DNA from: an uncultured virus (IMG/VR IMGVR_UViG_3300025108_000038)
Taxonomy: Duplodnaviria; Heunggongvirae; Uroviricota; Caudoviricetes; Crassvirales
Virus record (IMG/VR): IMGVR_UViG_3300025108_000038
Strand: one strand, 5' to 3'
DNA length: 20,000 nucleotides
Each line of letters opens with the position of its first letter. Position 1 is the stretch's first letter. The position numbers and the translations under genes are program-made. The notes under the pieces are model-generated. The model worked only from the letters and a program-made list of their open reading frames with translations. It was not told the DNA's origin and did no database searches. Below are positions 327-15,595 of the stretch, in pieces.

Positions 327-494
327 ATGAACTTCGATATGTCAGATATAAAATTATACGCTTTAAACGCAACGTCTCTTGTTGTATCTTTTTCACAAAT
401 TGATATGGCTTTAAAAATAATTTTGCTCGCACTAAGTGTTGGGTATACCGCTCAAAAGTGGTACTTATTAAATAAAGAAAGAAAGAACAAATAG
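327..494 (+). CDS. 55-aa small membrane protein, putative holin or antiholin (not in ORF track)
   Basis: ATG327 to TAG494 gives MNFDMSDIKLYALNATSLVVSFSQIDMALKIILLALSVGYTAQKWYLLNKERKNK. It has hydrophobic segments, a basic C-terminal tail and two nearby Met (1 and 5), and lies just upstream of the amidase. Confidence 0.7.
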   Translation: MNFDMSDIKLYALNATSLVVSFSQIDMALKIILLALSVGYTAQKWYLLNKERKNK

Positions 495-527
495 TAAAAG
501 TTCTAAAATCTTAATTAAAAACATAAG

Positions 528-554
528 AGGCACAGAACGACTGTGTCTTTTTTT
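528..554 (+). terminator. Rho-independent terminator
   Basis: AGGCACAG-aacga-CTGTGTCT hairpin (one G-U pair) followed by a T run. Confidence 0.65.
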
Positions 555-565
555 ATATATAAAAT

Positions 566-994
566 ATGAAAAAAGTTGAAAAAATCATTATTCATTGTTC
601 TGCAACAAGGGAGGGTGATGACTCTATTAACGCCGAGGTTATTGATCGCTGGCATAAAAAAAGAGGATGGAAAGGAATAGGATATCATTTTTTAGTTTTA
701 ATAGACGGATCTATTGAACCTGGAAGAATGATAAATAAGTGCGGTGCGCATACAAAGGGTTTGAATTGCAGTTCTATCTCGATTTGTTATGTTGGAGGAG
801 TAGAATCTGAAAAGGATTCAAAAGGAAAATATCCTGCAAAAGACACAAGAACACCAGAGCAAAAGGAAACATTGTTGGACTTATTACGTGTATTACGTAA
901 AATGTATCCAGAAGCAAAAATTCATTCCCATCGAGACTTTGCTGCTAAGGCGTGTCCAAGCTTTGACGCAACTACAGAATATTGTAATATTTAA
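566..994 (+). CDS. N-acetylmuramoyl-L-alanine amidase endolysin (Amidase_2, T7-lysozyme-like)
   Basis: Motifs IIIHCSAT, GWKGIGYHF, GAH, ISICYVGG and HRDFAAKACPSF, giving the His/His/Cys Zn ligands of T7 lysozyme-type amidases. Confidence 0.93.
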   Translation: MKKVEKIIIHCSATREGDDSINAEVIDRWHKKRGWKGIGYHFLVLIDGSIEPGRMINKCGAHTKGLNCSSISICYVGGVESEKDSKGKYPAKDTRTPEQKETLLDLLRVLRKMYPEAKIHSHRDFAAKACPSFDATTEYCNI

Positions 995-1006
995 AAATAA
1001 ATACTT

Positions 1007-1165
1007 ATGGCGAAAAAAGGTAGAACTAAAGGAAATAAAATTTGTGCAGCAGGAATCTCCTGGGCCAAAAGAACTTTTGATAAATACCCAAGTGCATATG
1101 CGAATATGGCGGCAAGCAAATATTGTAAAGATCCTAATTACGGAAAAGGTAAAAAGAAAAAATAA
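1007..1165 (+). CDS. 52-aa highly basic protein with a YPSAYAN motif (not in ORF track)
   Basis: MAKKGRTKGNKICAAGISWAKRTFDKYPSAYANMAASKYCKDPNYGKGKKKK; 15 K/R and 2 Cys. Its TAA overlaps the next ATG (TAATG). The PSAYAN motif is one I recall from uncharacterised aquatic-virus proteins (DUF5872-like). Confidence 0.8.
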   Translation: MAKKGRTKGNKICAAGISWAKRTFDKYPSAYANMAASKYCKDPNYGKGKKKK

Positions 1166-1395
1166 TGGGAGAGCTAAAGAAATGGCGTGAGCAGAATTGG
1201 GTTAGAATAGGCACTGATGGAAAAATCAAAGGCAAGTGTGGCACTTCTAAAAATAAGAAGAATCCAGATAGATGTTTGCCATTATCAAAAGCCAGAAGAT
1301 TATCGAAAAGTAAACTTAGAGCTACTGCGAAAAAAAAGAAAAGAGAAGGAGCTAAAGGAAAACAGTTTGTTAGAAACGTAAAAGGAGTAAGGTAA
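1165..1395 (+). CDS. 76-aa highly basic protein (LKKW..Q.W...CG...RCLP; DUF5872-like)
   Basis: 27 K/R and 2 Cys; TAATG coupling at both ends. Confidence 0.8.
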   Translation: MGELKKWREQNWVRIGTDGKIKGKCGTSKNKKNPDRCLPLSKARRLSKSKLRATAKKKKREGAKGKQFVRNVKGVR

Positions 1396-1676
1396 TGGCA
1401 ATAAGAAAAACTACAAAAGGTAAAAACGCTAATTATAGAGCTACTAAAAAAGGTGCAGGCATGACTAAAAAAGGAGTTGCCGCGTACAGAAGAGCTAATC
1501 CAGGCAGTAAGTTAAAAACCGCTGTTACTGGAAAAGTAAAGCCTGGGAGTAAAAGAGCTAAAAGAAGAAAATCTTATTGCGCAAGATCATTAGGTCAACT
1601 AAAAAGATCAAGCGCTAAAACACAAAATGATCCTAACTCAAGAATAAGACAAGCAAGAAAACGCTGGAAGTGCTAA
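1395..1676 (+). CDS. 93-aa highly basic protein (NPGSKLKT...RRKSYCAR...DPNSR...RWKC; DUF6321-like)
   Basis: 31 K/R, one Asp and 2 Cys. The motif is one I recall from many marine phage hypothetical proteins; the family name is from memory. Confidence 0.8.
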   Translation: MAIRKTTKGKNANYRATKKGAGMTKKGVAAYRRANPGSKLKTAVTGKVKPGSKRAKRRKSYCARSLGQLKRSSAKTQNDPNSRIRQARKRWKC

Positions 1677-1692
1677 CTTAAAACATATAAAA

Positions 1693-2088
1693 ATGAAAAA
1701 AATATTAAACTGGTTTGGTAGTAATGTTCTAAAAGATTTATTAGGAGGTTTAGACAAGTTATTTACTTCTAAAGAAGAAAAGATTAAAGCGGAAGCATTA
1801 ATAAAAGAAATTATTTTAAGTAAGCAATTAGAGCTACAAAGAATGCAAGCTGATATTATTATTGCAGAAGCAAAGGGTAATTGGCTTCAAAGAAGCTGGA
1901 GACCTGTTCTTATGTTGTGTTTTGGTTTTATAGTTATGTATGTAAAGTTTTTTGCACCTTTATTTGGGTGGCAAATTCCTGAGTTAGAAAATGAATTTTG
2001 GAACTTGCTACAATTAGGTATAGGAGGTTATGTTGTTGGTAGAAGTGCTGAAAAAATATCTAAGAATATCACCATTTCTAAAAAATAA
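1693..2088 (+). CDS. Holin of the 3TM (GTA holin-like) family
   Basis: N-terminal amphipathic helix and coiled coil, WLQRSWRP followed by a hydrophobic TM segment, then LLQLGIGGYVVGRSAEK. These are signature motifs of the GTA_holin_3TM family. Confidence 0.8.
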   Translation: MKKILNWFGSNVLKDLLGGLDKLFTSKEEKIKAEALIKEIILSKQLELQRMQADIIIAEAKGNWLQRSWRPVLMLCFGFIVMYVKFFAPLFGWQIPELENEFWNLLQLGIGGYVVGRSAEKISKNITISKK

Positions 2089-2860: not shown

Positions 2861-5407
2861 ATGGCAATAGGGTATTTAACTAACATTGATCTTAACAATA
2901 ATCAGGTCAAAGATTTTAAGATCGACAACGTAACCTCAGATCCAACAGGATTAGCTGGTGAAGGACAAATGATATATAGAACTGATACTAATCAGATGAA
3001 GTATCATACAGGTTCTAATAACTGGGTGGCGTTTGGAACAAGCGGAGGTACAGTTACTTCTATTAATTTAGGGAGTAGTACATCTACAATTAGTGTATCT
3101 GGAGGCCCTATTACTACAAGTGGAACTATACAAGTTAATTTACCAACTTCTGGAGTTACAGCAGGATCATATACAAGCGCTGACATTACAGTTAATGCTT
3201 ATGGTATAATCACCGCTGCTTCTGATGGTGGAGCAGGAACAATGAGTAACTGGTCATTAACAGCTGATTCAGGAGGAACTGCTACAATATCAGATGGTGA
3301 TACAGTTGATATTTCTGGTAGCACTTATATAACTACACTAAGAAGTGGAGACAATGTAAGTATAGCTCATGATGCTACTTCAAGATCAAATACAACGTCT
3401 ACTGGCGCGCCAGCTGCTGGAGCAACTTTTACTGCAATTGATTCTGTAGTCACAAACTCAACAGGTCACGTAACTGGTGTTAATACAAAAACAGTTACTA
3501 TGCCAGCTGATCAACAAGGAGTTACTTCTGTTGCAACTGGGAACGGAATATCAGGTGGAACAATAACCTCAACAGGTACTTTAACTGTTGGAGCTGGAGC
3601 TGGTTTATCACAATCATCTACAGGATTATTAGTAGACTATTTAGGAACTGATAATGTTATATTATCTGCTGCTGATGGTGTTACAACACCAATAACTGTA
3701 GCCGCTGGAGATAGAATAATGATAAGTGACGCTACGGATAACAATGTTAAATATGTAAACATATCACAATTAACCGCAGCTGTTGGTGGAGGTACAGTTA
3801 CTTCTGTAAATGTAAAAACAGATGGTACTTCTTTAAATGTTGCGTCTAATAGTATTACTTCGAGCGGAACAATGACAATGGTTTGGCAAGGTAGCACTTC
3901 TCAGTATGTTAATGGTGCTGGAGATTTAGTAACTTTCCCATCTATTCCAACAGTAGGGAATGGAACGCTAACAGTACAAGGTACAGGAGCATTAGGTGGT
4001 TCTGGAACATTTACAGCTAATCAATCAGGTAATACAACTATATCTGTAACTCATGACAATTTTACAGATACAGAAACTACAGACACTGCTGCTTTATCAT
4101 TTGGGGGAACATTTGATGCGTATACAGAAGTAACAACTAATGCAACAGGACACGTTACAGGACATGAGGTAACAACATTTACACTTCCTGCTAATCCAAA
4201 TGTAAATACAACTTCTTTACCAGTTAAAAATAGTGGAGGAACTACACAGTTTACATCTACTGAAACAACAGGTGTTAGATTTGCAGGTTCAGGCGCTACA
4301 TCAGTAGCATTTGCTCCTGGAACTCAAAAAGTTACAATCAGTTCAACTGACAATAACGAAACATATACTTTACCAGTTGCTTCTGGTGGTAGCAACTCTG
4401 CTGCAATACAATTAACAGCTGGTGGTACTGGTTCAGGTGTAAAATCAACTGTTACATTTAATGGTACTACAAACGAAATACAGGTTACGGAATCTACTGG
4501 AAATAATGGTAGTGTTACTATTGGTTTACCAAATGACGTTACAATCACTTCTGACTTAACGGTTGGAGATAATTTAACGCTAACAAGTGGTAACTTAAGT
4601 GTTACAGGTACAGGTTCTTTTACAGGACAAGTAACAATTCCTGTGACTCCAACAGCATCAGCTCACGCAGCTTCTAAGAGTTATGTAGACTCTACGCTGG
4701 CAGGTTCAGGAGCTTTAATATTCCAAGGTGGATATAACGCAGCAACTAACACGCCTGATTTAGATGTTTCTCCAAGTGCATCTATTAAACAAGGTTGGAC
4801 ATATGCAGTAACAGCAGCTGGTAACTTTTTTGGAGAAGCAGTTGAAGATGGTGATTTACTTATTGCAGAATCAGACTCTCCAACAGCATTATCTGATTGG
4901 ACAGTTGTTCAGAATAATATTGGCGTTGCAACCGATGGGGCTACAGACGGAGGAACAACTAAAGGTATAGCAGGATTTGATAGCGGAAGTTTTGGAGTTA
5001 GTACAAATGGATGGGTAACATTAAAACCTCGAAGCACGTCAGGTACTTACGGAGATGCTAACGAAACAGTAACTCTTACAGTTAATAACGCTGGTATTAT
5101 TACTTCAGCTTCAGAACAAGCAATTGCAATAACAGCATCTCAGGTAACTGATTTCTGTAATGCAGTCGATACTTGTGTTGCTGATAACGGAGTAACTGCA
5201 AATATTGGAGACGGAACTGCTGTTGCTTACCAAATAAATCATAACTTAGGCACAAGAAATGTAATTGTTTCATGCTACAGAAACTCTGCGCCATACGATA
5301 CAGTAATGTTAGATGTTGAGAGAACAAGTACAAATCAGGTTACTTTAAGAACAACAACTGCTTTAGCTTCTAACGCTGTTTCAGTTATTATTACAAAAGT
5401 AACATAG
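2861..5407 (+). CDS. Long G/T/S-rich tail or head fibre protein
   Basis: 848 aa with repeated GTVTSV, TGHVTG and ITVNxxGIIT segments, an AASKSYVD motif, an FQGGYNAATNTP domain and a C-terminal HNLG domain. Confidence 0.8.
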   Translation: MAIGYLTNIDLNNNQVKDFKIDNVTSDPTGLAGEGQMIYRTDTNQMKYHTGSNNWVAFGTSGGTVTSINLGSSTSTISVSGGPITTSGTIQVNLPTSGVTAGSYTSADITVNAYGIITAASDGGAGTMSNWSLTADSGGTATISDGDTVDISGSTYITTLRSGDNVSIAHDATSRSNTTSTGAPAAGATFTAIDSVVTNSTGHVTGVNTKTVTMPADQQGVTSVATGNGISGGTITSTGTLTVGAGAGLSQSSTGLLVDYLGTDNVILSAADGVTTPITVAAGDRIMISDATDNNVKYVNISQLTAAVGGGTVTSVNVKTDGTSLNVASNSITSSGTMTMVWQGSTSQYVNGAGDLVTFPSIPTVGNGTLTVQGTGALGGSGTFTANQSGNTTISVTHDNFTDTETTDTAALSFGGTFDAYTEVTTNATGHVTGHEVTTFTLPANPNVNTTSLPVKNSGGTTQFTSTETTGVRFAGSGATSVAFAPGTQKVTISSTDNNETYTLPVASGGSNSAAIQLTAGGTGSGVKSTVTFNGTTNEIQVTESTGNNGSVTIGLPNDVTITSDLTVGDNLTLTSGNLSVTGTGSFTGQVTIPVTPTASAHAASKSYVDSTLAGSGALIFQGGYNAATNTPDLDVSPSASIKQGWTYAVTAAGNFFGEAVEDGDLLIAESDSPTALSDWTVVQNNIGVATDGATDGGTTKGIAGFDSGSFGVSTNGWVTLKPRSTSGTYGDANETVTLTVNNAGIITSASEQAIAITASQVTDFCNAVDTCVADNGVTANIGDGTAVAYQINHNLGTRNVIVSCYRNSAPYDTVMLDVERTSTNQVTLRTTTALASNAVSVIITKVT
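3044..3805 (+). repeat. Exact 18-bp direct repeat GGAGGTACAGTTACTTCT (3044-3061 and 3788-3805)
   Basis: Read directly. Both copies encode GGTVTS at module junctions of the fibre. Confidence 0.85.
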
Positions 5408-9074: not shown

Positions 9075-9299
9075 ATGGACATAAGAAAAATTTCAATCGG
9101 AGCAGATTATAAGTCTGGCGCTATGCATTATATAGTCGGTCAAGATGTTTTAGGTGGAAGCTACGGAATACATCTTATACAACATGACATTCAAGCTAAG
9201 TCTTATAAAATCTGGATTATGAAGCAGAATGAAGTTTTGCTTTGGAAAGAATTTAAGTGTACCTTACCTATATCTTTAGAATATAATATAAATTTTTAA
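9075..9299 (+). CDS. Hypothetical protein (IRKISIG.DYK..AMHY.VGQ)
   Basis: Clean ORF with an AATTAAATG start context, coupled by TAATG to the GroES-like gene. Confidence 0.75.
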   Translation: MDIRKISIGADYKSGAMHYIVGQDVLGGSYGIHLIQHDIQAKSYKIWIMKQNEVLLWKEFKCTLPISLEYNINF

Positions 9300-9862
9300 T
9301 GAAATCTCCTTATTCGTTTATCGTAAAGCCTTATAATAATAAGAGATACGATAATACAAAAGCTTATGGTGATATAAATTTCATTGTAAGCACCTCAGAA
9401 GAAGACCATAGCGCCTCTAATCGCTATGCGGTAGTAGTATCTACTCCTATAAACTATAAAGGGCCTGTAAAAGAAGGTGATATGCTTTTAGTTCATCATA
9501 ATGTTTTTAAGTTTTACTACGATATGTATGGTCGAAGAAAAAGTGGAAAAAGTTTTTTTATGGAAGACTTGTTCCTTGTTGATCCAGATCAATTTTTTTT
9601 ATATAAACAAAATGGAGAATGGAAAGGATATAATAAGTATTGTTTTATAAAACCATCTCCAACTAAAAAATCTTTTATAAAAAAATCAATTACAGAAGAG
9701 CCTTTGTTTGGAACAATAAAATACATTAACGATCAGTTGTTAAGTATGGGCTTGAAAGTTGGCGATGAAATATCTTATCAGCCAGATAGTGAATATGAGT
9801 TTAATATTGACGGAGAAAGACTCTACAGAATGTTTACCAATAATATAACTTTTTCTTTATGA
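9299..9862 (+). CDS. GroES/Cpn10-like co-chaperonin, apparently two tandem domains
   Basis: Domain 1: FIVKP...AVVVSTP...VKEGDMLLV. Domain 2: CFIKP...GTIKY...LKVGDEISY...EFNIDGERLYRM...I. Both follow the GroES pattern (V.VK...G.V.AV...VKVGD.V...E...DG..Y..M....I). Confidence 0.7.
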   Translation: MKSPYSFIVKPYNNKRYDNTKAYGDINFIVSTSEEDHSASNRYAVVVSTPINYKGPVKEGDMLLVHHNVFKFYYDMYGRRKSGKSFFMEDLFLVDPDQFFLYKQNGEWKGYNKYCFIKPSPTKKSFIKKSITEEPLFGTIKYINDQLLSMGLKVGDEISYQPDSEYEFNIDGERLYRMFTNNITFSL

Positions 9863-10443
9863 TTTATATATTAGATGACTTTGTAGAAAAAAGTTTATTT
9901 AAAATAGCTAATGACTATTTAGATAAAAATACTTTTAATAAAATAAAAGCAGGAGATAAAGATTTTCATATACAGCAATCAAATAAAGAGTTTGATAAAT
10001 ATGTAACCTCCAGGCTATCCATGGTAGAGGGTAAAGAAATAAAAAATATTTTAAGTTTTTTTAGAATATCTACAGACTCCTTAGATGTTTCTTGGAGGAT
10101 TCATTCTGATTTAAATATTAATGGCGAAAAACCAGACAGAGCTTTAGTGCTTTATTTATCTCCAAGGGAAAAAGAAGATCTTCATGGTACTGCTTTATGG
10201 GAACACGATATATATGGAAGGGAGATTCCTAAAGAAATAACTGATGAAGATTACGATAAAATGATTAAATTAGATGCTAATAACTTAGACAGGTGGAGAT
10301 TAAGCACAGTAGTTGGTTATGAAGAAAATAGATTAGTTTCTTACCCTTCAAGTTATTTTCATAGCAAATACCCAAATATATCATGGAAAGAAGGAAGAAA
10401 AGTTTTTGTTATGTTTTATAAAGTTTCTGATTATGAAGAATAA
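9859..10443 (+). CDS. 2OG-Fe(II) dioxygenase-like protein
   Basis: YILDDF start, IHSD (HxD), ALVLYL, GT, NRLVSYPSSYFH (distal His) and GRKVFVMFY (2OG-binding Arg). ATGA overlap with the upstream gene. Confidence 0.85.
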   Translation: MIYILDDFVEKSLFKIANDYLDKNTFNKIKAGDKDFHIQQSNKEFDKYVTSRLSMVEGKEIKNILSFFRISTDSLDVSWRIHSDLNINGEKPDRALVLYLSPREKEDLHGTALWEHDIYGREIPKEITDEDYDKMIKLDANNLDRWRLSTVVGYEENRLVSYPSSYFHSKYPNISWKEGRKVFVMFYKVSDYEE

Positions 10444-10561
10444 AAAAGTTGAAAAAAACAACACTGAATGGTATGAGAAGATAGATAAATTAAAACTTAA
10501 ATATAATCGAAATAAAGATGGATATAAAAAACATAAAAAAAGAGATTATAAAAGCTGGTGA
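10433..10561 (+). CDS. Possible 42-aa basic peptide (not in ORF track)
   Basis: MKNKKVEKNNTEWYEKIDKLKLKYNRNKDGYKKHKKRDYKSW fills the 10444-10517 gap but overlaps the next gene by 44 nt. Confidence 0.35.
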   Translation: MKNKKVEKNNTEWYEKIDKLKLKYNRNKDGYKKHKKRDYKSW

Positions 10562-10793
10562 GTCAGCTGTTTTGCAATTAATAAAAGTTGCAAAAGAAGA
10601 TATTATTAAGTATGATAAAGATGATGAGCTGGCTGCTGATAGATTGAAAAATGCAGCTGCTACAAAAAAACTTTGTATTATGGATGCTTTTGAAATACTG
10701 AAAAAAATTCAAGAAGAAAAAGATCAAATAGAAGGAATAGATACTAAAAAAAATAATACACCAAAAGGATTTGCAGAGTCAAGATCAAAATAA
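10518..10793 (+). CDS. Putative terminase small subunit
   Basis: 91-aa helical protein immediately upstream of and overlapping terL. The call is positional. Confidence 0.55.
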   Translation: MDIKNIKKEIIKAGESAVLQLIKVAKEDIIKYDKDDELAADRLKNAAATKKLCIMDAFEILKKIQEEKDQIEGIDTKKNNTPKGFAESRSK

Positions 10794-13020
10794 ATTATAC
10801 ACTGAACTTAAAAATATAGTTCCTAAAAATGTTTTGTCAATAAAAAACAAGTCTAAGTCATGGGCTTATGGGTATAATGAAAAATACAATTTTGTTGTTA
10901 TATCAAAAACAGGTCAAATTGATCAAGTAATAAATATTAGTGGCCTCAATATAGCTCTTCCAAAACTTTCAAAAGATATAATTAAAAGATCAAAAAAAAA
11001 AGAAGATCAATTCTGGGAATCTAAAGAGCTACCTAAACAATTAAAAAAAATAAAGTCTATTTTTCAATGGCATGAAGCTCCTTTAAGTTTTAAAAATGAG
11101 TGGATTGATTATATTGAAAATGAATTTAATTACAGAGAATTAGGGTGTTGGTTTTACAACAATGGAGTTCCTACTTACATTACAGGAACTCATTATATGT
11201 ATCTTCAATGGACAAAGATAGATGTAGGTCTTCCTGACTACAGGGAAGCTAATAGAGTTTTTTATATATTTTGGGAAGCCTGTAAAGCAGATAAAAGAAG
11301 TTTTGGAATGGATTATTTAAAAATTAGGCGTTCAGGATTTTCTTTTATGGCTTCATGTGAAGGAGTAAATACTGGTACAATTACAAAAGATGCTCGTATT
11401 GGAGTTTTATCTAAAACAGGATCTGATGCCAAAAAAATGTTTACTGACAAAATAGTTCCTATATCAAACAACTACCCTTTCTTTTTTAAGCCCATACAAG
11501 ATGGTATGGATAAACCAAAAACAGAATTAGCCTATAGAGTACCTGCTTCAAAAATTACTAAAAAAAATATGTATTTAACTGAAGACCAGGAACTTGAAGG
11601 TCTTGATACTACTATTGACTGGAAAAATACTGGAGATAACAGTTATGATGGTGAAAAATTACAATTGTTACTACATGATGAAAGTGGAAAGTGGGAAAAG
11701 CCTGATAACATTTTAAACAACTGGAGGGTTACTAAAACCTGTCTTAGATTAGGTAGTAAAGTTATTGGTAAATGTATGATGGGATCTACATCAAATGCTC
11801 TTGACAAGGGTGGTAGTAATTTTAAAAAATTATACATTGATTCTGATTGTGGAAAACGAAACTCAAATGGTCAAACTAAAAGTGGGTTATATTCACTTTT
11901 CATCCCTATGGAATGGAATATGGAGGGCTTTATTGACAGATATGGAATGCCTGTTTTTAGGTCTCCTGATTCGCCAATACTTGGTATTGATGGAGAGATG
12001 ATAAGTCAAGGAGCTTTAGATTACTGGGAAAATGAAGTTGATTCATTGAAGCAAGATCCTGATGCTCTAAATGAGTTTTACAGACAATTTCCAAGATCAG
12101 AATCTCACGCTTTTAGAGATGAAAGCAAACAGTCTATATTTAATTTAACTAAAATATATCAGCAAATTGACTACAATGATTCTTTAATTACAGCCAGATA
12201 TGTAACTCAAGGATCTTTTTCTTGGGAGAACGGAATTAAAGATACCAGGGTTATTTGGTCACCTAATAAAAGAGGAAGATTTTTTGTAACTTGGTTACCA
12301 GAAAAAGCATTGCAAAATAATGTTATAACAAAAAATGGAGTAAAATACCCAGGGAATGAACACGTAGGTACATTTGGGTGTGATTCATACGACATATCAG
12401 GTGTTGTTGTTGGAAAAGGATCTAATGGTTCTTTACATGGATTAACAAAATTTAATATGGATAACGCTCCAAGCAATGAGTTTTTTTTAGAATACATAGC
12501 TCGTCCTCAAACTGCTGAGTTGTTTTTTGAAGATGTTTTAATGGCTATGGTGTTTTATGGAATGCCTATTTTGTGTGAAAATAATAAACCTCGTTTATTA
12601 TATCACTTAAAAAACAGGGGTTACAGACAATTTAGTTTAAATAGACCTGACAAAAGGTTTAACAAATTGTCTAAAACAGAAAAAGAATTGGGAGGAATAC
12701 CAAATTCAAGTGAAGACGTAAAACAATCTCACGCCTCTGCTATAGAGTCTTACATAGAAAAGTATGTTGGATTAGATATGCAGGGTTCGTACAGAGATAA
12801 AGACGATATGGGTATAATGCATTTTCAAAGAACTTTAGAGGATTGGGCTAAGTTTGATATAAGTAACAGAACTAAATTTGATGCGTCTATTAGTTCAGGT
12901 TTAGCTATAATGGCAAATCAAAAACACCTATACACTCCGTCTAAACAAAAATCGAAAATAAGCATTAACTTTGCAAGATATAATAACACAGCTTCGGTTA
13001 GTCAATTAATTAATAAATGA
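10771..13020 (+). CDS. terL: Terminase large subunit
   Basis: YLKIRRSGFS (Walker A variant), LLLHDESGKW (Walker B), MMGSTSN (coupling motif), FGCDSYD and CENNK (RNase H-like nuclease). The start is TTG and uncertain. Confidence 0.92.
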   Translation: MQSQDQNKLYTELKNIVPKNVLSIKNKSKSWAYGYNEKYNFVVISKTGQIDQVINISGLNIALPKLSKDIIKRSKKKEDQFWESKELPKQLKKIKSIFQWHEAPLSFKNEWIDYIENEFNYRELGCWFYNNGVPTYITGTHYMYLQWTKIDVGLPDYREANRVFYIFWEACKADKRSFGMDYLKIRRSGFSFMASCEGVNTGTITKDARIGVLSKTGSDAKKMFTDKIVPISNNYPFFFKPIQDGMDKPKTELAYRVPASKITKKNMYLTEDQELEGLDTTIDWKNTGDNSYDGEKLQLLLHDESGKWEKPDNILNNWRVTKTCLRLGSKVIGKCMMGSTSNALDKGGSNFKKLYIDSDCGKRNSNGQTKSGLYSLFIPMEWNMEGFIDRYGMPVFRSPDSPILGIDGEMISQGALDYWENEVDSLKQDPDALNEFYRQFPRSESHAFRDESKQSIFNLTKIYQQIDYNDSLITARYVTQGSFSWENGIKDTRVIWSPNKRGRFFVTWLPEKALQNNVITKNGVKYPGNEHVGTFGCDSYDISGVVVGKGSNGSLHGLTKFNMDNAPSNEFFLEYIARPQTAELFFEDVLMAMVFYGMPILCENNKPRLLYHLKNRGYRQFSLNRPDKRFNKLSKTEKELGGIPNSSEDVKQSHASAIESYIEKYVGLDMQGSYRDKDDMGIMHFQRTLEDWAKFDISNRTKFDASISSGLAIMANQKHLYTPSKQKSKISINFARYNNTASVSQLINK

Positions 13021-15452
13021 AAGATGTAAAAATACAAGTTAACTCGGCTGCTTTTCCTGATCAATTTGAATCAGATTCTGTTAAAGACACAATGGAGTTT
13101 GGCTTACAAGTAGGTCAAGCAATTCAGTATGAGTGGTTTAGAAAAGATAGTGGTTCGTGTAGGTTTTATAATCAATGGGCTGACTTTAATAGACTAAGGC
13201 TATACGCAAGAGGAGAGCAGTCTATAAGTAAATATAAAAACGAAATAGCAGTAGATGGAGATTTAAGTCACTTAAATTTAGATTGGACTCCAGTTCCTAT
13301 AATACCTAAGTTTGTAGACATAGTTGTAAACGGAATGTCTGACAGGCTTTTTAAAATAAAAACATACGCTCAAGACGCTATGTCTGCTGAAAAACGTAGT
13401 ATTTTTCAAGACATGGTTCAGGCTGATATGGTAGCAGCGCCAGTGTTAAGGCAGTTAGAAAAAGATTTTGAAATACCTGTTTTTAGTGTTGCTGAAGAAG
13501 AACTTCCTGGAAGTGATGAAGAGCTTGAGTTGTATATGCAAATGAAGTACAAGCCAGCTATTGAGATTGCTCAAGAAGTTGGAATAAATACTTTGTTAGA
13601 TGAAAATCATTACCAAGATATAAGGAAAAGAGTTGACTACGATCAAACTGTTTTAGGCATAGGAATGTGTAAGCATATGTTCTTGCCTGGAACTGGAGTT
13701 AAAGTTGAGTATGTAGATCCAGCAAATGTAGTTTATAGTTACACTGAAGATCCTTATTTTAAAGATAATTTTTATTGGGGAGAAATAAAAACAGTTCCTA
13801 TTGGGGAGCTAATTAAAATAGATCCAGATTTAACTCTTTCTGATTTAGATGAAATTTCTAAATATAGTCAATCTTGGTATCAATATTATAATAATGCTCA
13901 GGCTTATAACAATAGTATGTTTCACAGAGACACTGCTACATTGTTATACTTTAATTACAAGTCTACTCACTCTTTTGTTTATAAAAAGAAAAGAATGTCA
14001 GATGGAAGTTTTAAAACTGTACAGAAGGATGATCAATTTAATCCTCCTGTTGAAATGCAGAAAGAAGGTAATTTTGAAAAAGTTACAAAAAGAATTGATG
14101 TTTGGTATGATGGAGTAATGGTCATGGGTACTAACATAATGCTTCAGTGGAAACTAAGTGAAAATATGGTTAGACCTAAATCTGCTAATCAATACGCAAG
14201 GCCCAACTACATAGCTTGCGCTCCAAGGATGTATAAAGGTTCTGTTGAATCTTTAGTAAGAAGGATGATTCCGTTTGCTGATTTAATTCAAATGACTCAT
14301 TTAAAAATACAGCAAGTAGTTTCAAGGGTAGTTCCTGATGGAGTTTTTATTGATGCTGATGGATTAAACGAAGTGGATTTAGGTACTGGAAGTGCTTATA
14401 ATCCAGAAGATGCTTTAAGACTTTACTTCCAAACAGGTAGTGTTATTGGTAGAAGTTTTACTCAAGATGGAGAGTTTAATAATGCTAAAGTACCTATAAC
14501 TCAGTTAACTGCTTCAAGCGGAGCAGGTAAAATGCAAATGCTTATAGGTAATTATAATCACTATTTAGATATGATCAGGGCAGTGACTGGGCTTAACGAA
14601 GCTCGTGATGGTTCAAGTCCAGATCCAAATTCTTTAGTTGGCGTAAATAAATTAGCAGCATTAAATTCCAATACAGCAACAAGACATATTTTACAAGCAA
14701 GTTTATATATGACTCGAAGTTTAGCGGAGTGCTTATCAATAAGAATGGCAGATATATTAGAATATTCTGATTTTAAAGATGAGTTTGCTATGCAAATCGG
14801 TAAATATAATTTACAGATTATTGATGAAATAAAAAGTCTTTATATATATGATTTTGGAATATTTATAGAAATGTCTCCAGATGAAGAGGAAAAAGCTATG
14901 CTTGAACAAAATATTCAAATGGCTTTATCTAAAGAAAATATAAGTCTTGAGGATGCTATAGATATTAGGGAAATACATAATCTAAAGATGGCTAATCAAT
15001 TGCTTAAATTAAAGCGTAAGCAAAAGCAAGACAGAGAGCAGCAGATGCAAATGCAACAACAAGAAATGCAAGCTCAACAGCAAATGCAAGCTCAAGAAGC
15101 CGCGGCTCAACAGCAAATGCAAATAACTCAACAATCAGCTGCCACTAAAATGGAAACAATGACAGCTGAATCTCAAATGGCAATTCAAAAAATGCAAATG
15201 GAAGCTCAGTTAAAAACTAAATTAATGGAGGTTGAGTTTAATTATCAAATGCAATTAAAAGGGCTTGAGCAGTCTCAAATAGATCAAAGAGAAAAAAACA
15301 GAGAGTCTGAAAAAAATAAAAGAATAAACCAACAATCTTCTAATCAATCTAAAATGATTGAACAACGAAAACGTAATTTACCTTCTATTAATTTTGAATC
15401 AAATGAGGATAGTTTAGATGGTTTTGATTTTTCTGAGTTTAACCCAAGATAA
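13017..15452 (+). CDS. Portal protein
   Basis: 811 aa directly after terL (ATGA overlap), with PIIPKFVDIVV and TGLNEARDG motifs and a Q/M-rich C-terminal coiled coil. Confidence 0.88.
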   Translation: MKDVKIQVNSAAFPDQFESDSVKDTMEFGLQVGQAIQYEWFRKDSGSCRFYNQWADFNRLRLYARGEQSISKYKNEIAVDGDLSHLNLDWTPVPIIPKFVDIVVNGMSDRLFKIKTYAQDAMSAEKRSIFQDMVQADMVAAPVLRQLEKDFEIPVFSVAEEELPGSDEELELYMQMKYKPAIEIAQEVGINTLLDENHYQDIRKRVDYDQTVLGIGMCKHMFLPGTGVKVEYVDPANVVYSYTEDPYFKDNFYWGEIKTVPIGELIKIDPDLTLSDLDEISKYSQSWYQYYNNAQAYNNSMFHRDTATLLYFNYKSTHSFVYKKKRMSDGSFKTVQKDDQFNPPVEMQKEGNFEKVTKRIDVWYDGVMVMGTNIMLQWKLSENMVRPKSANQYARPNYIACAPRMYKGSVESLVRRMIPFADLIQMTHLKIQQVVSRVVPDGVFIDADGLNEVDLGTGSAYNPEDALRLYFQTGSVIGRSFTQDGEFNNAKVPITQLTASSGAGKMQMLIGNYNHYLDMIRAVTGLNEARDGSSPDPNSLVGVNKLAALNSNTATRHILQASLYMTRSLAECLSIRMADILEYSDFKDEFAMQIGKYNLQIIDEIKSLYIYDFGIFIEMSPDEEEKAMLEQNIQMALSKENISLEDAIDIREIHNLKMANQLLKLKRKQKQDREQQMQMQQQEMQAQQQMQAQEAAAQQQMQITQQSAATKMETMTAESQMAIQKMQMEAQLKTKLMEVEFNYQMQLKGLEQSQIDQREKNRESEKNKRINQQSSNQSKMIEQRKRNLPSINFESNEDSLDGFDFSEFNPR
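15040..15135 (+). repeat. Gln/Met-rich coding low-complexity repeat, including 18-bp GCTCAACAGCAAATGCAA twice (15072-15089, 15105-15122)
   Basis: Read directly; encodes QQMQMQQQEMQAQQQMQAQEAAAQQQMQ. Confidence 0.8.
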
Positions 15453-15460
15453 ATAAAGTA

Positions 15461-15595
15461 ATGATAGAAAAAACATCAGGGCCACAATTGAATCAAGTAA
15501 GATCTGATTTTAATAAAAGAGTCACAAAAAAAGCTATGTTAGGCAAGACTAAAAAAATACAATGGGAAGCCAGACGAAGGTTTTCTAATATTTAA
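15461..15595 (+). CDS. 44-aa basic peptide between portal and scaffold (not in ORF track)
   Basis: MIEKTSGPQLNQVRSDFNKRVTKKAMLGKTKKIQWEARRRFSNI starts 8 nt after the portal stop and ends before the next promoter, filling the gap. Confidence 0.6.
   Translation: MIEKTSGPQLNQVRSDFNKRVTKKAMLGKTKKIQWEARRRFSNI

What the first reader, a model, noticed from the sequence alone, without database searches (positions are those of the whole stretch)
1007..1676. Triplet of translationally coupled, extremely basic mini-proteins, each with exactly two Cys, inside the lysis cassette
Seen: three ORFs (52, 76 and 93 aa) chained by TAATG overlaps between the amidase and the 3TM holin. K/R counts are 15/52, 27/76 and 31/93, and the Cys pairs are C13/C40, C25/C37 and C62/C93. 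The first ORF is missing from the ORF track. No Rz/Rz1 or u-spanin lipoprotein (signal peptide plus lipobox) is visible in the cassette. Known: Gram-negative lysis needs an outer-membrane step, and phage phiKT gp28 is a cationic peptide that replaces spanins. From memory, these motifs resemble DUF5872/DUF6321-type families of unknown function. Inference: the three form a stoichiometric module. Candidate roles are holin-released, disulfide-stabilised cationic outer-membrane disruptors, or protamine-like / RNA-binding proteins that condense the genome or bind ribosomes.
Basis: partly seen in the sequence, partly recalled or inferred. Interest (0 to 1): 0.8.

Follow-up and report, generated by a model that had tools for sequence, protein, structure and literature searches.

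The report
Three-part basic viral mini-protein kit
Three tiny, strongly positively charged phage proteins are real, but they form a widespread kit that many unrelated ocean viruses share and probably pack into the virus head with the DNA; their place between the cell-bursting genes here looks incidental.

Summary
The three ORFs (A, B, C) are real, conserved genes of a marine flavobacterial phage. The lysis reading is not supported. An endolysin is adjacent in 3 of 189 related loci. The proteins lack the amphipathic helix of phiKT gp28. Relatives occur alongside spanin-like lipoproteins and in viruses whose hosts have no outer membrane. The module idea holds, in changed form. A and B behave as the two halves of a split DUF5872 (A before B in 150 of 150 loci). 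C is DUF6321 and fills a third slot that a DUF5754-like protein fills instead (0 of 117 loci had both). Natural fusions join all three. In long polyproteins, an L/I-x-E motif, the T4 prohead-protease cut site, precedes the modules. Two cyanophage homologues are listed as virion proteins, on thin evidence. Best reading (0.5): head-internal, DNA-binding cargo, working like T4 internal proteins. No function has been tested. This scan noted similar basic cassettes before on other DNA (two earlier notes). The three-slot rule was not in those notes as shown to me, and the paper searches found no function for these families.

The parts
327..494 (+). 55-aa ORF with one hydrophobic stretch; putative holin or antiholin (inferred)
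   Evidence: No Pfam or PHROG hit; peak hydropathy 1.93; relatives sit just upstream of the endolysin in many flavophage loci
525..551 (+). Terminator-like hairpin between the 55-aa ORF and the amidase
   Evidence: Pattern match only; function not tested
566..994 (+). Endolysin, N-acetylmuramoyl-L-alanine amidase
   Evidence: Pfam Amidase_2 E 9e-13; phrog_822
1007..1165 (+). ORF A, 52 aa, net +13, PSAYA core; N-terminal half of a split DUF5872-like unit
   Evidence: phrog_27331; 9 of 37 aligned relatives match DUF5872, within positions 1-51 in the members checked; Atlas DUF5872 cluster score 0.90
1165..1395 (+). ORF B, 76 aa, net +22; C-terminal half of the split DUF5872-like unit; TAATG overlap with A
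   Evidence: phrog_23735; 17 of 77 aligned relatives match DUF5872, positions about 50-110 in the members checked; AF2 model pLDDT 83, hairpin plus helices
1395..1676 (+). ORF C, 93 aa, net +30, DUF6321; third-slot protein, exchangeable with a DUF5754-like protein; TAATG overlap with B
   Evidence: Pfam DUF6321 above cut-off; 91% identical to HTVC100P gp24; exclusivity; AF2 pLDDT 80
1693..2088 (+). Holin of the GTA 3TM family
   Evidence: Pfam GTA_holin_3TM E 2.6e-9; phrog_3427 holin

Best explanation
A, B and C are a three-slot kit (A + B + either C or a DUF5754-like protein) of small, folded, very basic proteins. They are made late, packed inside the phage head and bind the packaged DNA, neutralising charge or organising it, and may leave with it on ejection. 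In T4-like phages the same modules are built into one polyprotein, often with acidic spacers, and the prohead protease would free them. In this podovirus-like phage they are separate, translationally coupled genes. Their place inside the lysis cassette is a lineage-specific relocation within the late operon. SHOWN: genes, families, order rule, third-slot exclusivity, fusions, motif enrichment. FROM RECORDS AND PAPERS: two cyanophage homologues listed as virion proteins. INFERRED: internal location, cleavage, DNA binding, any complex, and that this phage packages them.
For: (1) A precedes B in 150 of 150 non-redundant loci holding both, and they map to the two halves of DUF5872. (2) C and the DUF5754-like family: 47 C only, 54 other only, 0 both, 16 neither, of 117 loci. 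The rule holds in 4+4 near-complete genomes with controls, with 11 swaps by parsimony and at least 3 forced. (3) Fusions: S-SCSM1 gp29 holds A, B and C; 31 of 120 long third-slot hits also hold A and B; B-C fusions occur. (4) L/I-x-E lies within 15 aa upstream of A in 53 of 77 and of B in 34 of 52 long proteins, against shuffle means 18.7 and 15.8, maxima 30 and 24. L/I-X-E is the T4 gp21 site (PMC9026906 passages). (5) S-SCSM1 gp29 is labelled 'virion protein'. S-CREM2 ORF137 has 4 peptides and 4.1% coverage, close to its protease (4, 9.9%) and scaffold (7, 16.2%). (6) A head gene is adjacent in 23 and within three genes in 52 of 189 loci; the layouts portal-A-B-scaffold and scaffold..C..A-B-capsid recur. 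(7) The third-slot family matches phrog_220 'minor head protein and DNA pilot', and one relative follows Arg/Ser repeats. (8) DUF5872 and DUF5754 are listed in algal virus CpV-BQ1.
Against: No data on these proteins themselves. The virion evidence is thin. I did not see the S-SCSM1 table row or any peptide positions. S-CREM1 and S-SCSM2R could not be scored. The S-SCSM1 authors warn that highly expressed proteins can co-purify with virions. Most long polyproteins are unnamed metagenomic sequences, and I did not show that they come from T4-like phages. The window's ORFs carry no cut sites or targeting signal. Holin-like genes lie within three genes in 40 of 189 loci, close to the 52 for head genes. 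HTVC010P, HTVC100P and elemoE lack A and B, so the kit is dispensable. Conservation is higher than plain charge neutralisation would need. None of the 120 long third-slot hits carried a minor-head Pfam domain.
Confidence: 0.5

Rival explanations
1. Packaged and ejected host-directed effectors, as T4 IPI is: they act on a conserved host target (a restriction nuclease, ribosomal RNA, the nucleoid) in the first minutes of infection rather than on the phage's own DNA.
For: Same packaging clues as the best explanation. Very high sequence conservation with near-saturated synonymous sites across phages of different host phyla suggests a specific conserved partner. Presence is patchy, as for accessory genes. 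T4 IPI inhibits type IV restriction enzymes.
Against: Anti-defence proteins usually vary quickly (own knowledge). Relatives in viruses of bacteria, algae and apparently archaea would need a target common to all. No fold match to a known inhibitor.
Confidence: 0.2
2. Non-virion late proteins that act in the infected cell (RNA or ribosome binding, DNA handling during packaging, chaperonin-linked assembly aid).
For: A GroEL or GroES gene lies within three genes in 35 of 189 loci. Composition resembles small ribosomal proteins (own knowledge). Virion detection may be carry-over.
Against: Protease-type motifs placed directly before each module point to the prohead. No sequence or fold match to ribosomal proteins.
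Confidence: 0.12
3. Outer capsid or tail decoration proteins, stabilised by disulfides, that bind anionic cell surfaces.
For: Cys pairs are kept in B (at least 90% of 77) and C (invariant in 30); they lie in the structural operon; virion listing of homologues.
Against: T4's outer proteins Hoc and Soc are not cut by gp21 (table), whereas these modules follow cut-type motifs. A loses both Cys in 7 of 37 rows.
Confidence: 0.1
4. Disruptin-like outer-membrane disruptors that replace spanins.
For: Same endolysin-X-holin layout as phiKT genes 27-28-29. No lipobox in the window. One complete relative (G005) has the same layout and no lipoprotein gene in its cassette. Pelagiphage homologues lie 1-2 kb downstream of an M15 endolysin. 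Very cationic peptides often harm membranes in vitro (own knowledge).
Against: An endolysin is adjacent in 3 of 189 loci, and endolysin and holin sit together without these genes in 29 of 32 flavophage loci. gp28: hydrophobic moment 0.68 (3 of 300 shuffles as high), 36% large hydrophobic residues, no Cys. A, B, C: 0.46-0.47 (67, 190, 194 of 300 shuffles as high), 15-20%. Complete genomes G003 and G006 have the kit and also a lipoprotein gene between endolysin and holin; elemoE has neither A/B nor a lipobox hit. The families occur in an algal virus and an archaeal-type spindle virus.
Confidence: 0.08

Closest known systems
DUF6321 (PF19846), DUF5872 (PF19197), DUF5754 (PF19058)
   Same: C is DUF6321. 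Relatives of A and B match the two halves of DUF5872. The alternative third protein matches DUF5754 weakly, below cut-off.
   Different: No function is attached to these families. Here DUF5872 is split into two genes too divergent to hit the model directly. The third-slot exchange was not found in the papers searched.
Basic-module virion polyproteins of T4-like cyanophages (S-SCSM1 gp29, S-CREM2 ORF137)
   Same: Same A, B and C modules (gp29) or C module (ORF137); listed as virion proteins.
   Different: There they are fused, with spacers and L/I-x-E-type motifs; here they are three free genes in a flavobacterial phage.
Phage T4 internal proteins IPI-IPIII and core proteins cut by gp21
   Same: Small head-internal proteins released by the prohead protease at L/I-X-E (PMC9026906); this is what the fused forms most likely work like.
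   Different: No sequence or fold relation found; no capsid-targeting sequence in the window's ORFs; this phage is not T4-like.
Ascovirus P64 / virus-specific 2-cysteine adaptor (PF08793) and protamine-like viral core proteins
   Same: Very basic virion proteins with repeated two-Cys modules that bind and condense DNA (PMC6163548 passages).
   Different: No PF08793 match; no Arg/Ser repeats in A, B or C; different hosts.
phiKT gp28 disruptin
   Same: Small cationic protein encoded between endolysin and holin in a cassette without lipobox.
   Different: gp28 is amphipathic, net +7, has no Cys and almost no homologues. A, B and C are hydrophilic, net +13 to +30, widespread and mostly away from lysis genes.

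Membership tests
DUF6321 (ORF C) | Score above the Pfam gathering cut-off | tested here: met
   46.5 bits against 28.5, model positions 5-72 of 72
DUF5872 (ORFs A and B) | Score above the Pfam gathering cut-off for the window's own proteins | tested here: not met
   No hit at E <= 0.1
DUF5872 (ORFs A and B) | Homology through relatives to the two halves of the model | tested here: met
   9 of 37 A-type and 17 of 77 B-type members match; positions 1-51 and about 50-110 in those inspected
Disruptin (phiKT gp28 type) | Small cationic protein between endolysin and holin, no lipobox gene nearby | tested here: met
   (20 kb window only; the rest of the genome is not held)
Disruptin (phiKT gp28 type) | Predicted amphipathic helix with substantial hydrophobic face | tested here: not met
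   Moment 0.46-0.47, not above shuffles, against 0.68 for gp28
   only amidase and M15 endolysins were counted, and the lipoproteins are spanin-like by inference
Disruptin (phiKT gp28 type) | Complements a lambda spanin mutant and binds membranes | not testable with these tools
   Bench test
T4-type internal head proteins | Prohead-protease motif L/I-X-E before the mature part | tested here: inconclusive
   Enriched in fused relatives (53 of 77, 34 of 52); absent from the window's free ORFs; cleavage itself not shown
T4-type internal head proteins | Present in purified virions | tested here: inconclusive
   Two homologues listed; two further proteomes could not be scored; nothing for this phage
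T4-type internal head proteins | Sequence or fold homology to IPI, IPII or IPIII | tested here: inconclusive
   Sequence and fold searches of PDB gave nothing significant; A was not folded alone
2-cysteine adaptor / P64-like condensing proteins | Match to PF08793 | tested here: not met
   Not among Pfam hits of the window proteins or of 37 A-type and 77 B-type members
2-cysteine adaptor / P64-like condensing proteins | Binds and condenses DNA | not testable with these tools
   Bench test

The most novel reading that the evidence does not exclude
A + B + (C or its DUF5754-like substitute) is a conserved, folded nucleoprotein kit, a kind of viral chromatin. It is shared by tailed phages of Bacteroidota, SAR11 and cyanobacteria, by algal giant viruses and, in part, by archaeal spindle viruses. 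It is delivered as free genes or as a protease-released polyprotein, and trypsin proteomics has missed it because it yields almost no detectable peptides (B none, C one, A two).
Probability: 0.25. Interest if true: 0.85.

Novelty: new variant of a known kind. Interest (0 to 1): 0.55.

Why it matters
How small marine phages neutralise and organise their packed DNA, and what they inject with it, is little known (own knowledge). These genes occur in very abundant ocean viruses: C has an 81% identical relative in HTVC010P, and the fused S-SCSM1 protein matches 498 phage records, mostly cyanophages. Linking three orphan families into one kit, with a swap rule and a predicted protease release, gives sharp tests in cultured phages (S-SCSM1, HTVC023P, C75C1, elemo). 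As a lysis finding it is ordinary: a late-operon insertion.

Tried and rejected
Complex prediction of A with B gave no verdict (score 0.01, controls not folded); it counts neither for nor against binding. Fold searches: Foldseek against PDB gave no match for C; VIA-align best Z was 2.8 for B and 5.3 for C, both within the range of common arrangements; the viral library returned 5 matches at E <= 0.001, all DUF6321-type or unnamed, including S-SCSM1 gp29. PDB sequence searches gave nothing below E 0.1. Disulfide or zinc geometry could not be read from the models. C against the DUF5754-like family by profile comparison gave probability 40%, E 3e-4: a shared RRKS-x-x-AR motif, homology likely but unproven. 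The promoter scan was at chance level (7 against 6.6). Contigs from two RNA libraries cover parts of the cassette, but transcription is not shown. Median identities of A, B and C against flanking genes were not used, because loci were chosen by likeness to A, B and C. The careful tree did not finish; the quick tree was used. Mimicin (bioRxiv 10.64898/2026.09.16.751764, passages) has no Cys and is restricted to mimiviruses; not pursued. A search for pelagiphage virion proteomics found 0 papers. The window's whole genome is not held and the nearest record covers only 9101-15566, so spanins elsewhere in this genome remain untested.

Full report
Observation. The three ORFs, their K/R counts, Cys positions and TAATG overlaps are as described. 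They lie between an Amidase_2 endolysin and a GTA-type 3TM holin. No lipobox occurs in any frame of the window. The major virion protein is 46% identical to that of Flavobacterium elemo phages, and terminase, portal and GroES-like genes follow. The window is therefore most likely a phage of marine Flavobacteriia (inference). Its whole genome is not held.

They are real genes. A is 100% identical to the copy in G002 at pS 0.63, while terminase and portal DNA of that pair is about 72% identical. C is 91% identical to pelagiphage HTVC100P gp24 (pS 0.72) and 81% to HTVC010P. This is strong purifying selection across phages of different host phyla.

Families. C is DUF6321. A and B do not hit Pfam themselves. 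Nine of 37 A-type relatives match DUF5872 (positions 1-51 in those inspected) and 17 of 77 B-type relatives match it (about 50-110), so A + B behave as a split DUF5872. The A-type members inspected that hit Pfam belong to a subtype without the core Cys, linked to the window's A by the PSAYA core. Cys are invariant in C (30 rows), at least 90% kept in B (77 rows), and both lost in 7 of 37 A rows. Full-text searches found DUF6321 in 0 papers, DUF5872 in 1 and DUF5754 in 2. The one passage read is a gene table of algal virus CpV-BQ1 that lists both DUF5872 and DUF5754.

Neighbourhoods. The 238 loci were gene-called, clustered, labelled with PHROGs and reduced to 189 non-redundant loci, leaving out the window and five annotated records. 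They fall into flavophage-like (84), HTVC023P-like (61), T7-like (26), HTVC010P-like (6) and unassigned (12) groups by my own marker choice. A and B co-occur in 150, always A first, adjacent in 84. All three occur in 83, but as a contiguous A-B-C run in only 11; C precedes A in 51. An endolysin (amidase or M15 families only; others may be missed) is seen in 38 loci and is adjacent in 3. Of 32 flavophage loci showing endolysin and 3TM holin, 3 have any of the genes between them and 29 do not. A head gene is adjacent in 23 and within three genes in 52. Holin-like genes, two families of which are holin-like only by my inference, are adjacent in 11 and within three genes in 40. Another small basic ORF lies within three genes in 172. 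The commonest flavophage position is an island of small basic genes after GroEL/GroES; a second is between portal and scaffold. A near-identical strain carries about 370 extra nt between B and C (run X12). The place in the lysis cassette and the exact overlap chain are thus labile.

A third slot. Among 117 non-redundant loci found through A or B, 47 have C, 54 have a DUF5754-like basic protein, none has both and 16 neither. Four C-bearing and four substitute-bearing near-complete genomes keep the rule, with positive controls. On a quick tree of 101 B proteins the label changes 11 times, at least 3 forced by strong branches. None of 445 long proteins held both modules, though that set is biased by my queries. 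The two share an RRKS-x-x-AR motif; profile comparison gives probability 40%. The third slot can stand alone: HTVC010P and HTVC100P have C only, elemoE has the substitute only (controls 105, 106). The substitute also occurs in a Nitrosopumilaceae spindle-shaped virus record.

Fusions and processing. S-SCSM1 gp29 (517 aa) holds B-, A- and C-type modules and matches 498 phage records, mostly cyanophages. Among 120 long third-slot hits, 31 also hold A and B. In the 63 of 150 scored long proteins with acidic spacers, spacers average net charge -0.06 per residue and modules +0.21. Over all non-redundant long proteins with at least 40 residues upstream, strict L/I-x-E lies within 15 residues before A in 53 of 77 and before B in 34 of 52, against shuffle maxima of 30 and 24. 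T4 gp21 cuts head proteins after L/I-X-E (PMC9026906, passages). I infer that these polyproteins enter the prohead and are cut to free the basic modules. Neither the cleavage nor the T4-like origin of the unnamed proteins was shown.

Virion evidence. GenBank labels S-SCSM1 gp29 'virion protein'. The paper reports 45 proteins by mass spectrometry (PMC9602691, passages), but a search of its one held supplement did not show the row. S-CREM2 ORF137, which ends in a C-type module, has 4 peptides and 4.1% coverage, close to the protease and scaffold (PMC10665884, passages and section 18). S-CREM1 and S-SCSM2R could not be scored from passages and supplement searches (PMC9964418, PMC12801897); their detected proteins are marked in figures that I cannot see. 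In silico, trypsin gives B no peptide of 7-35 residues, C one and A two, so standard proteomics would tend to miss the free proteins.

Lysis test. But gp28 is amphipathic (moment 0.68, 3 of 300 shuffles as high; 36% large hydrophobic residues), and A, B and C are not (0.46-0.47; 15-20%). Complete genomes G003 and G006 carry the kit and a lipoprotein gene between endolysin and holin; G002 and elemoE show no lipobox; G005, with the window's layout, has two hits away from the cassette; 8 of 84 flavophage loci show a small lipoprotein gene. There is no anti-correlation, and lack of a recognisable spanin is common in this lineage with or without A and B.

Structure. AlphaFold2 models reach pLDDT 80 (C) and 83 (B), suggesting small folds rather than disordered protamines. 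No known fold matched.

Verdict. A real, conserved three-slot kit of basic mini-proteins, most likely head-internal and DNA-binding (0.5). Rivals: ejected host-directed effectors (0.2), non-virion late function (0.12), outer decoration (0.1), disruptin (0.08). It works like T4 internal proteins or two-Cys viral condensing proteins such as ascovirus P64 (PMC6163548, passages), but membership of neither family is shown. Two earlier notes of this scan describe similar cassettes on other genomes; one gave the S-CREM2 lead, which I checked. A word search of the notes found nothing more.

Noticed in passing
window 15461-15595: A 44-aa basic ORF lies between portal and scaffold, the slot where A and B sit in several relatives such as L013, L019 and L020.
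   Followed up: no
window 888-1190: A 100-aa GTG frame overlaps the amidase end and all of A; probably a shadow frame.
   Followed up: no
L239 4986-5153 (phage C75C1): GenBank annotates an overlapping frame (4972-5160) and misses the true A gene.
   Followed up: yes
L021 4342-4975; also L052, L055, L162: A one-TM coiled-coil gene followed by a lipoprotein gene: a candidate two-component spanin of flavobacterial phages.
   Followed up: partly
L113 7589-7948; also L009, L121: A lipoprotein gene between M15 endolysin and 3TM holin; candidate spanin-like protein.
   Followed up: partly
L001-L238, around the matches: About twenty further families of 35-100 aa basic ORFs form a variable island; HTVC023P-like loci add Lys/Met-GG repeat proteins.
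   Followed up: no
P0102, P0257, P0280: Polyproteins in which a nucleotidyltransferase-like domain accompanies the basic modules, between B and A in P0102.
   Followed up: no
P0349, P0359, P0362: Proteins of 1156-2154 aa without Pfam hits carry a B module near the end, directly after a GG motif.
   Followed up: no
P0481: The third-slot module follows Arg/Ser protamine-like repeats in a protein from a 442-kb contig.
   Followed up: no
L249 3959-4210: The third-slot substitute occurs in a Nitrosopumilaceae spindle-shaped virus record, flanked by two more small basic ORFs.
   Followed up: partly
window 9299-10443: A GroES-like gene (phrog_13932) and a gene with a weak DUF6445 hit lie before the terminase.
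   Followed up: no
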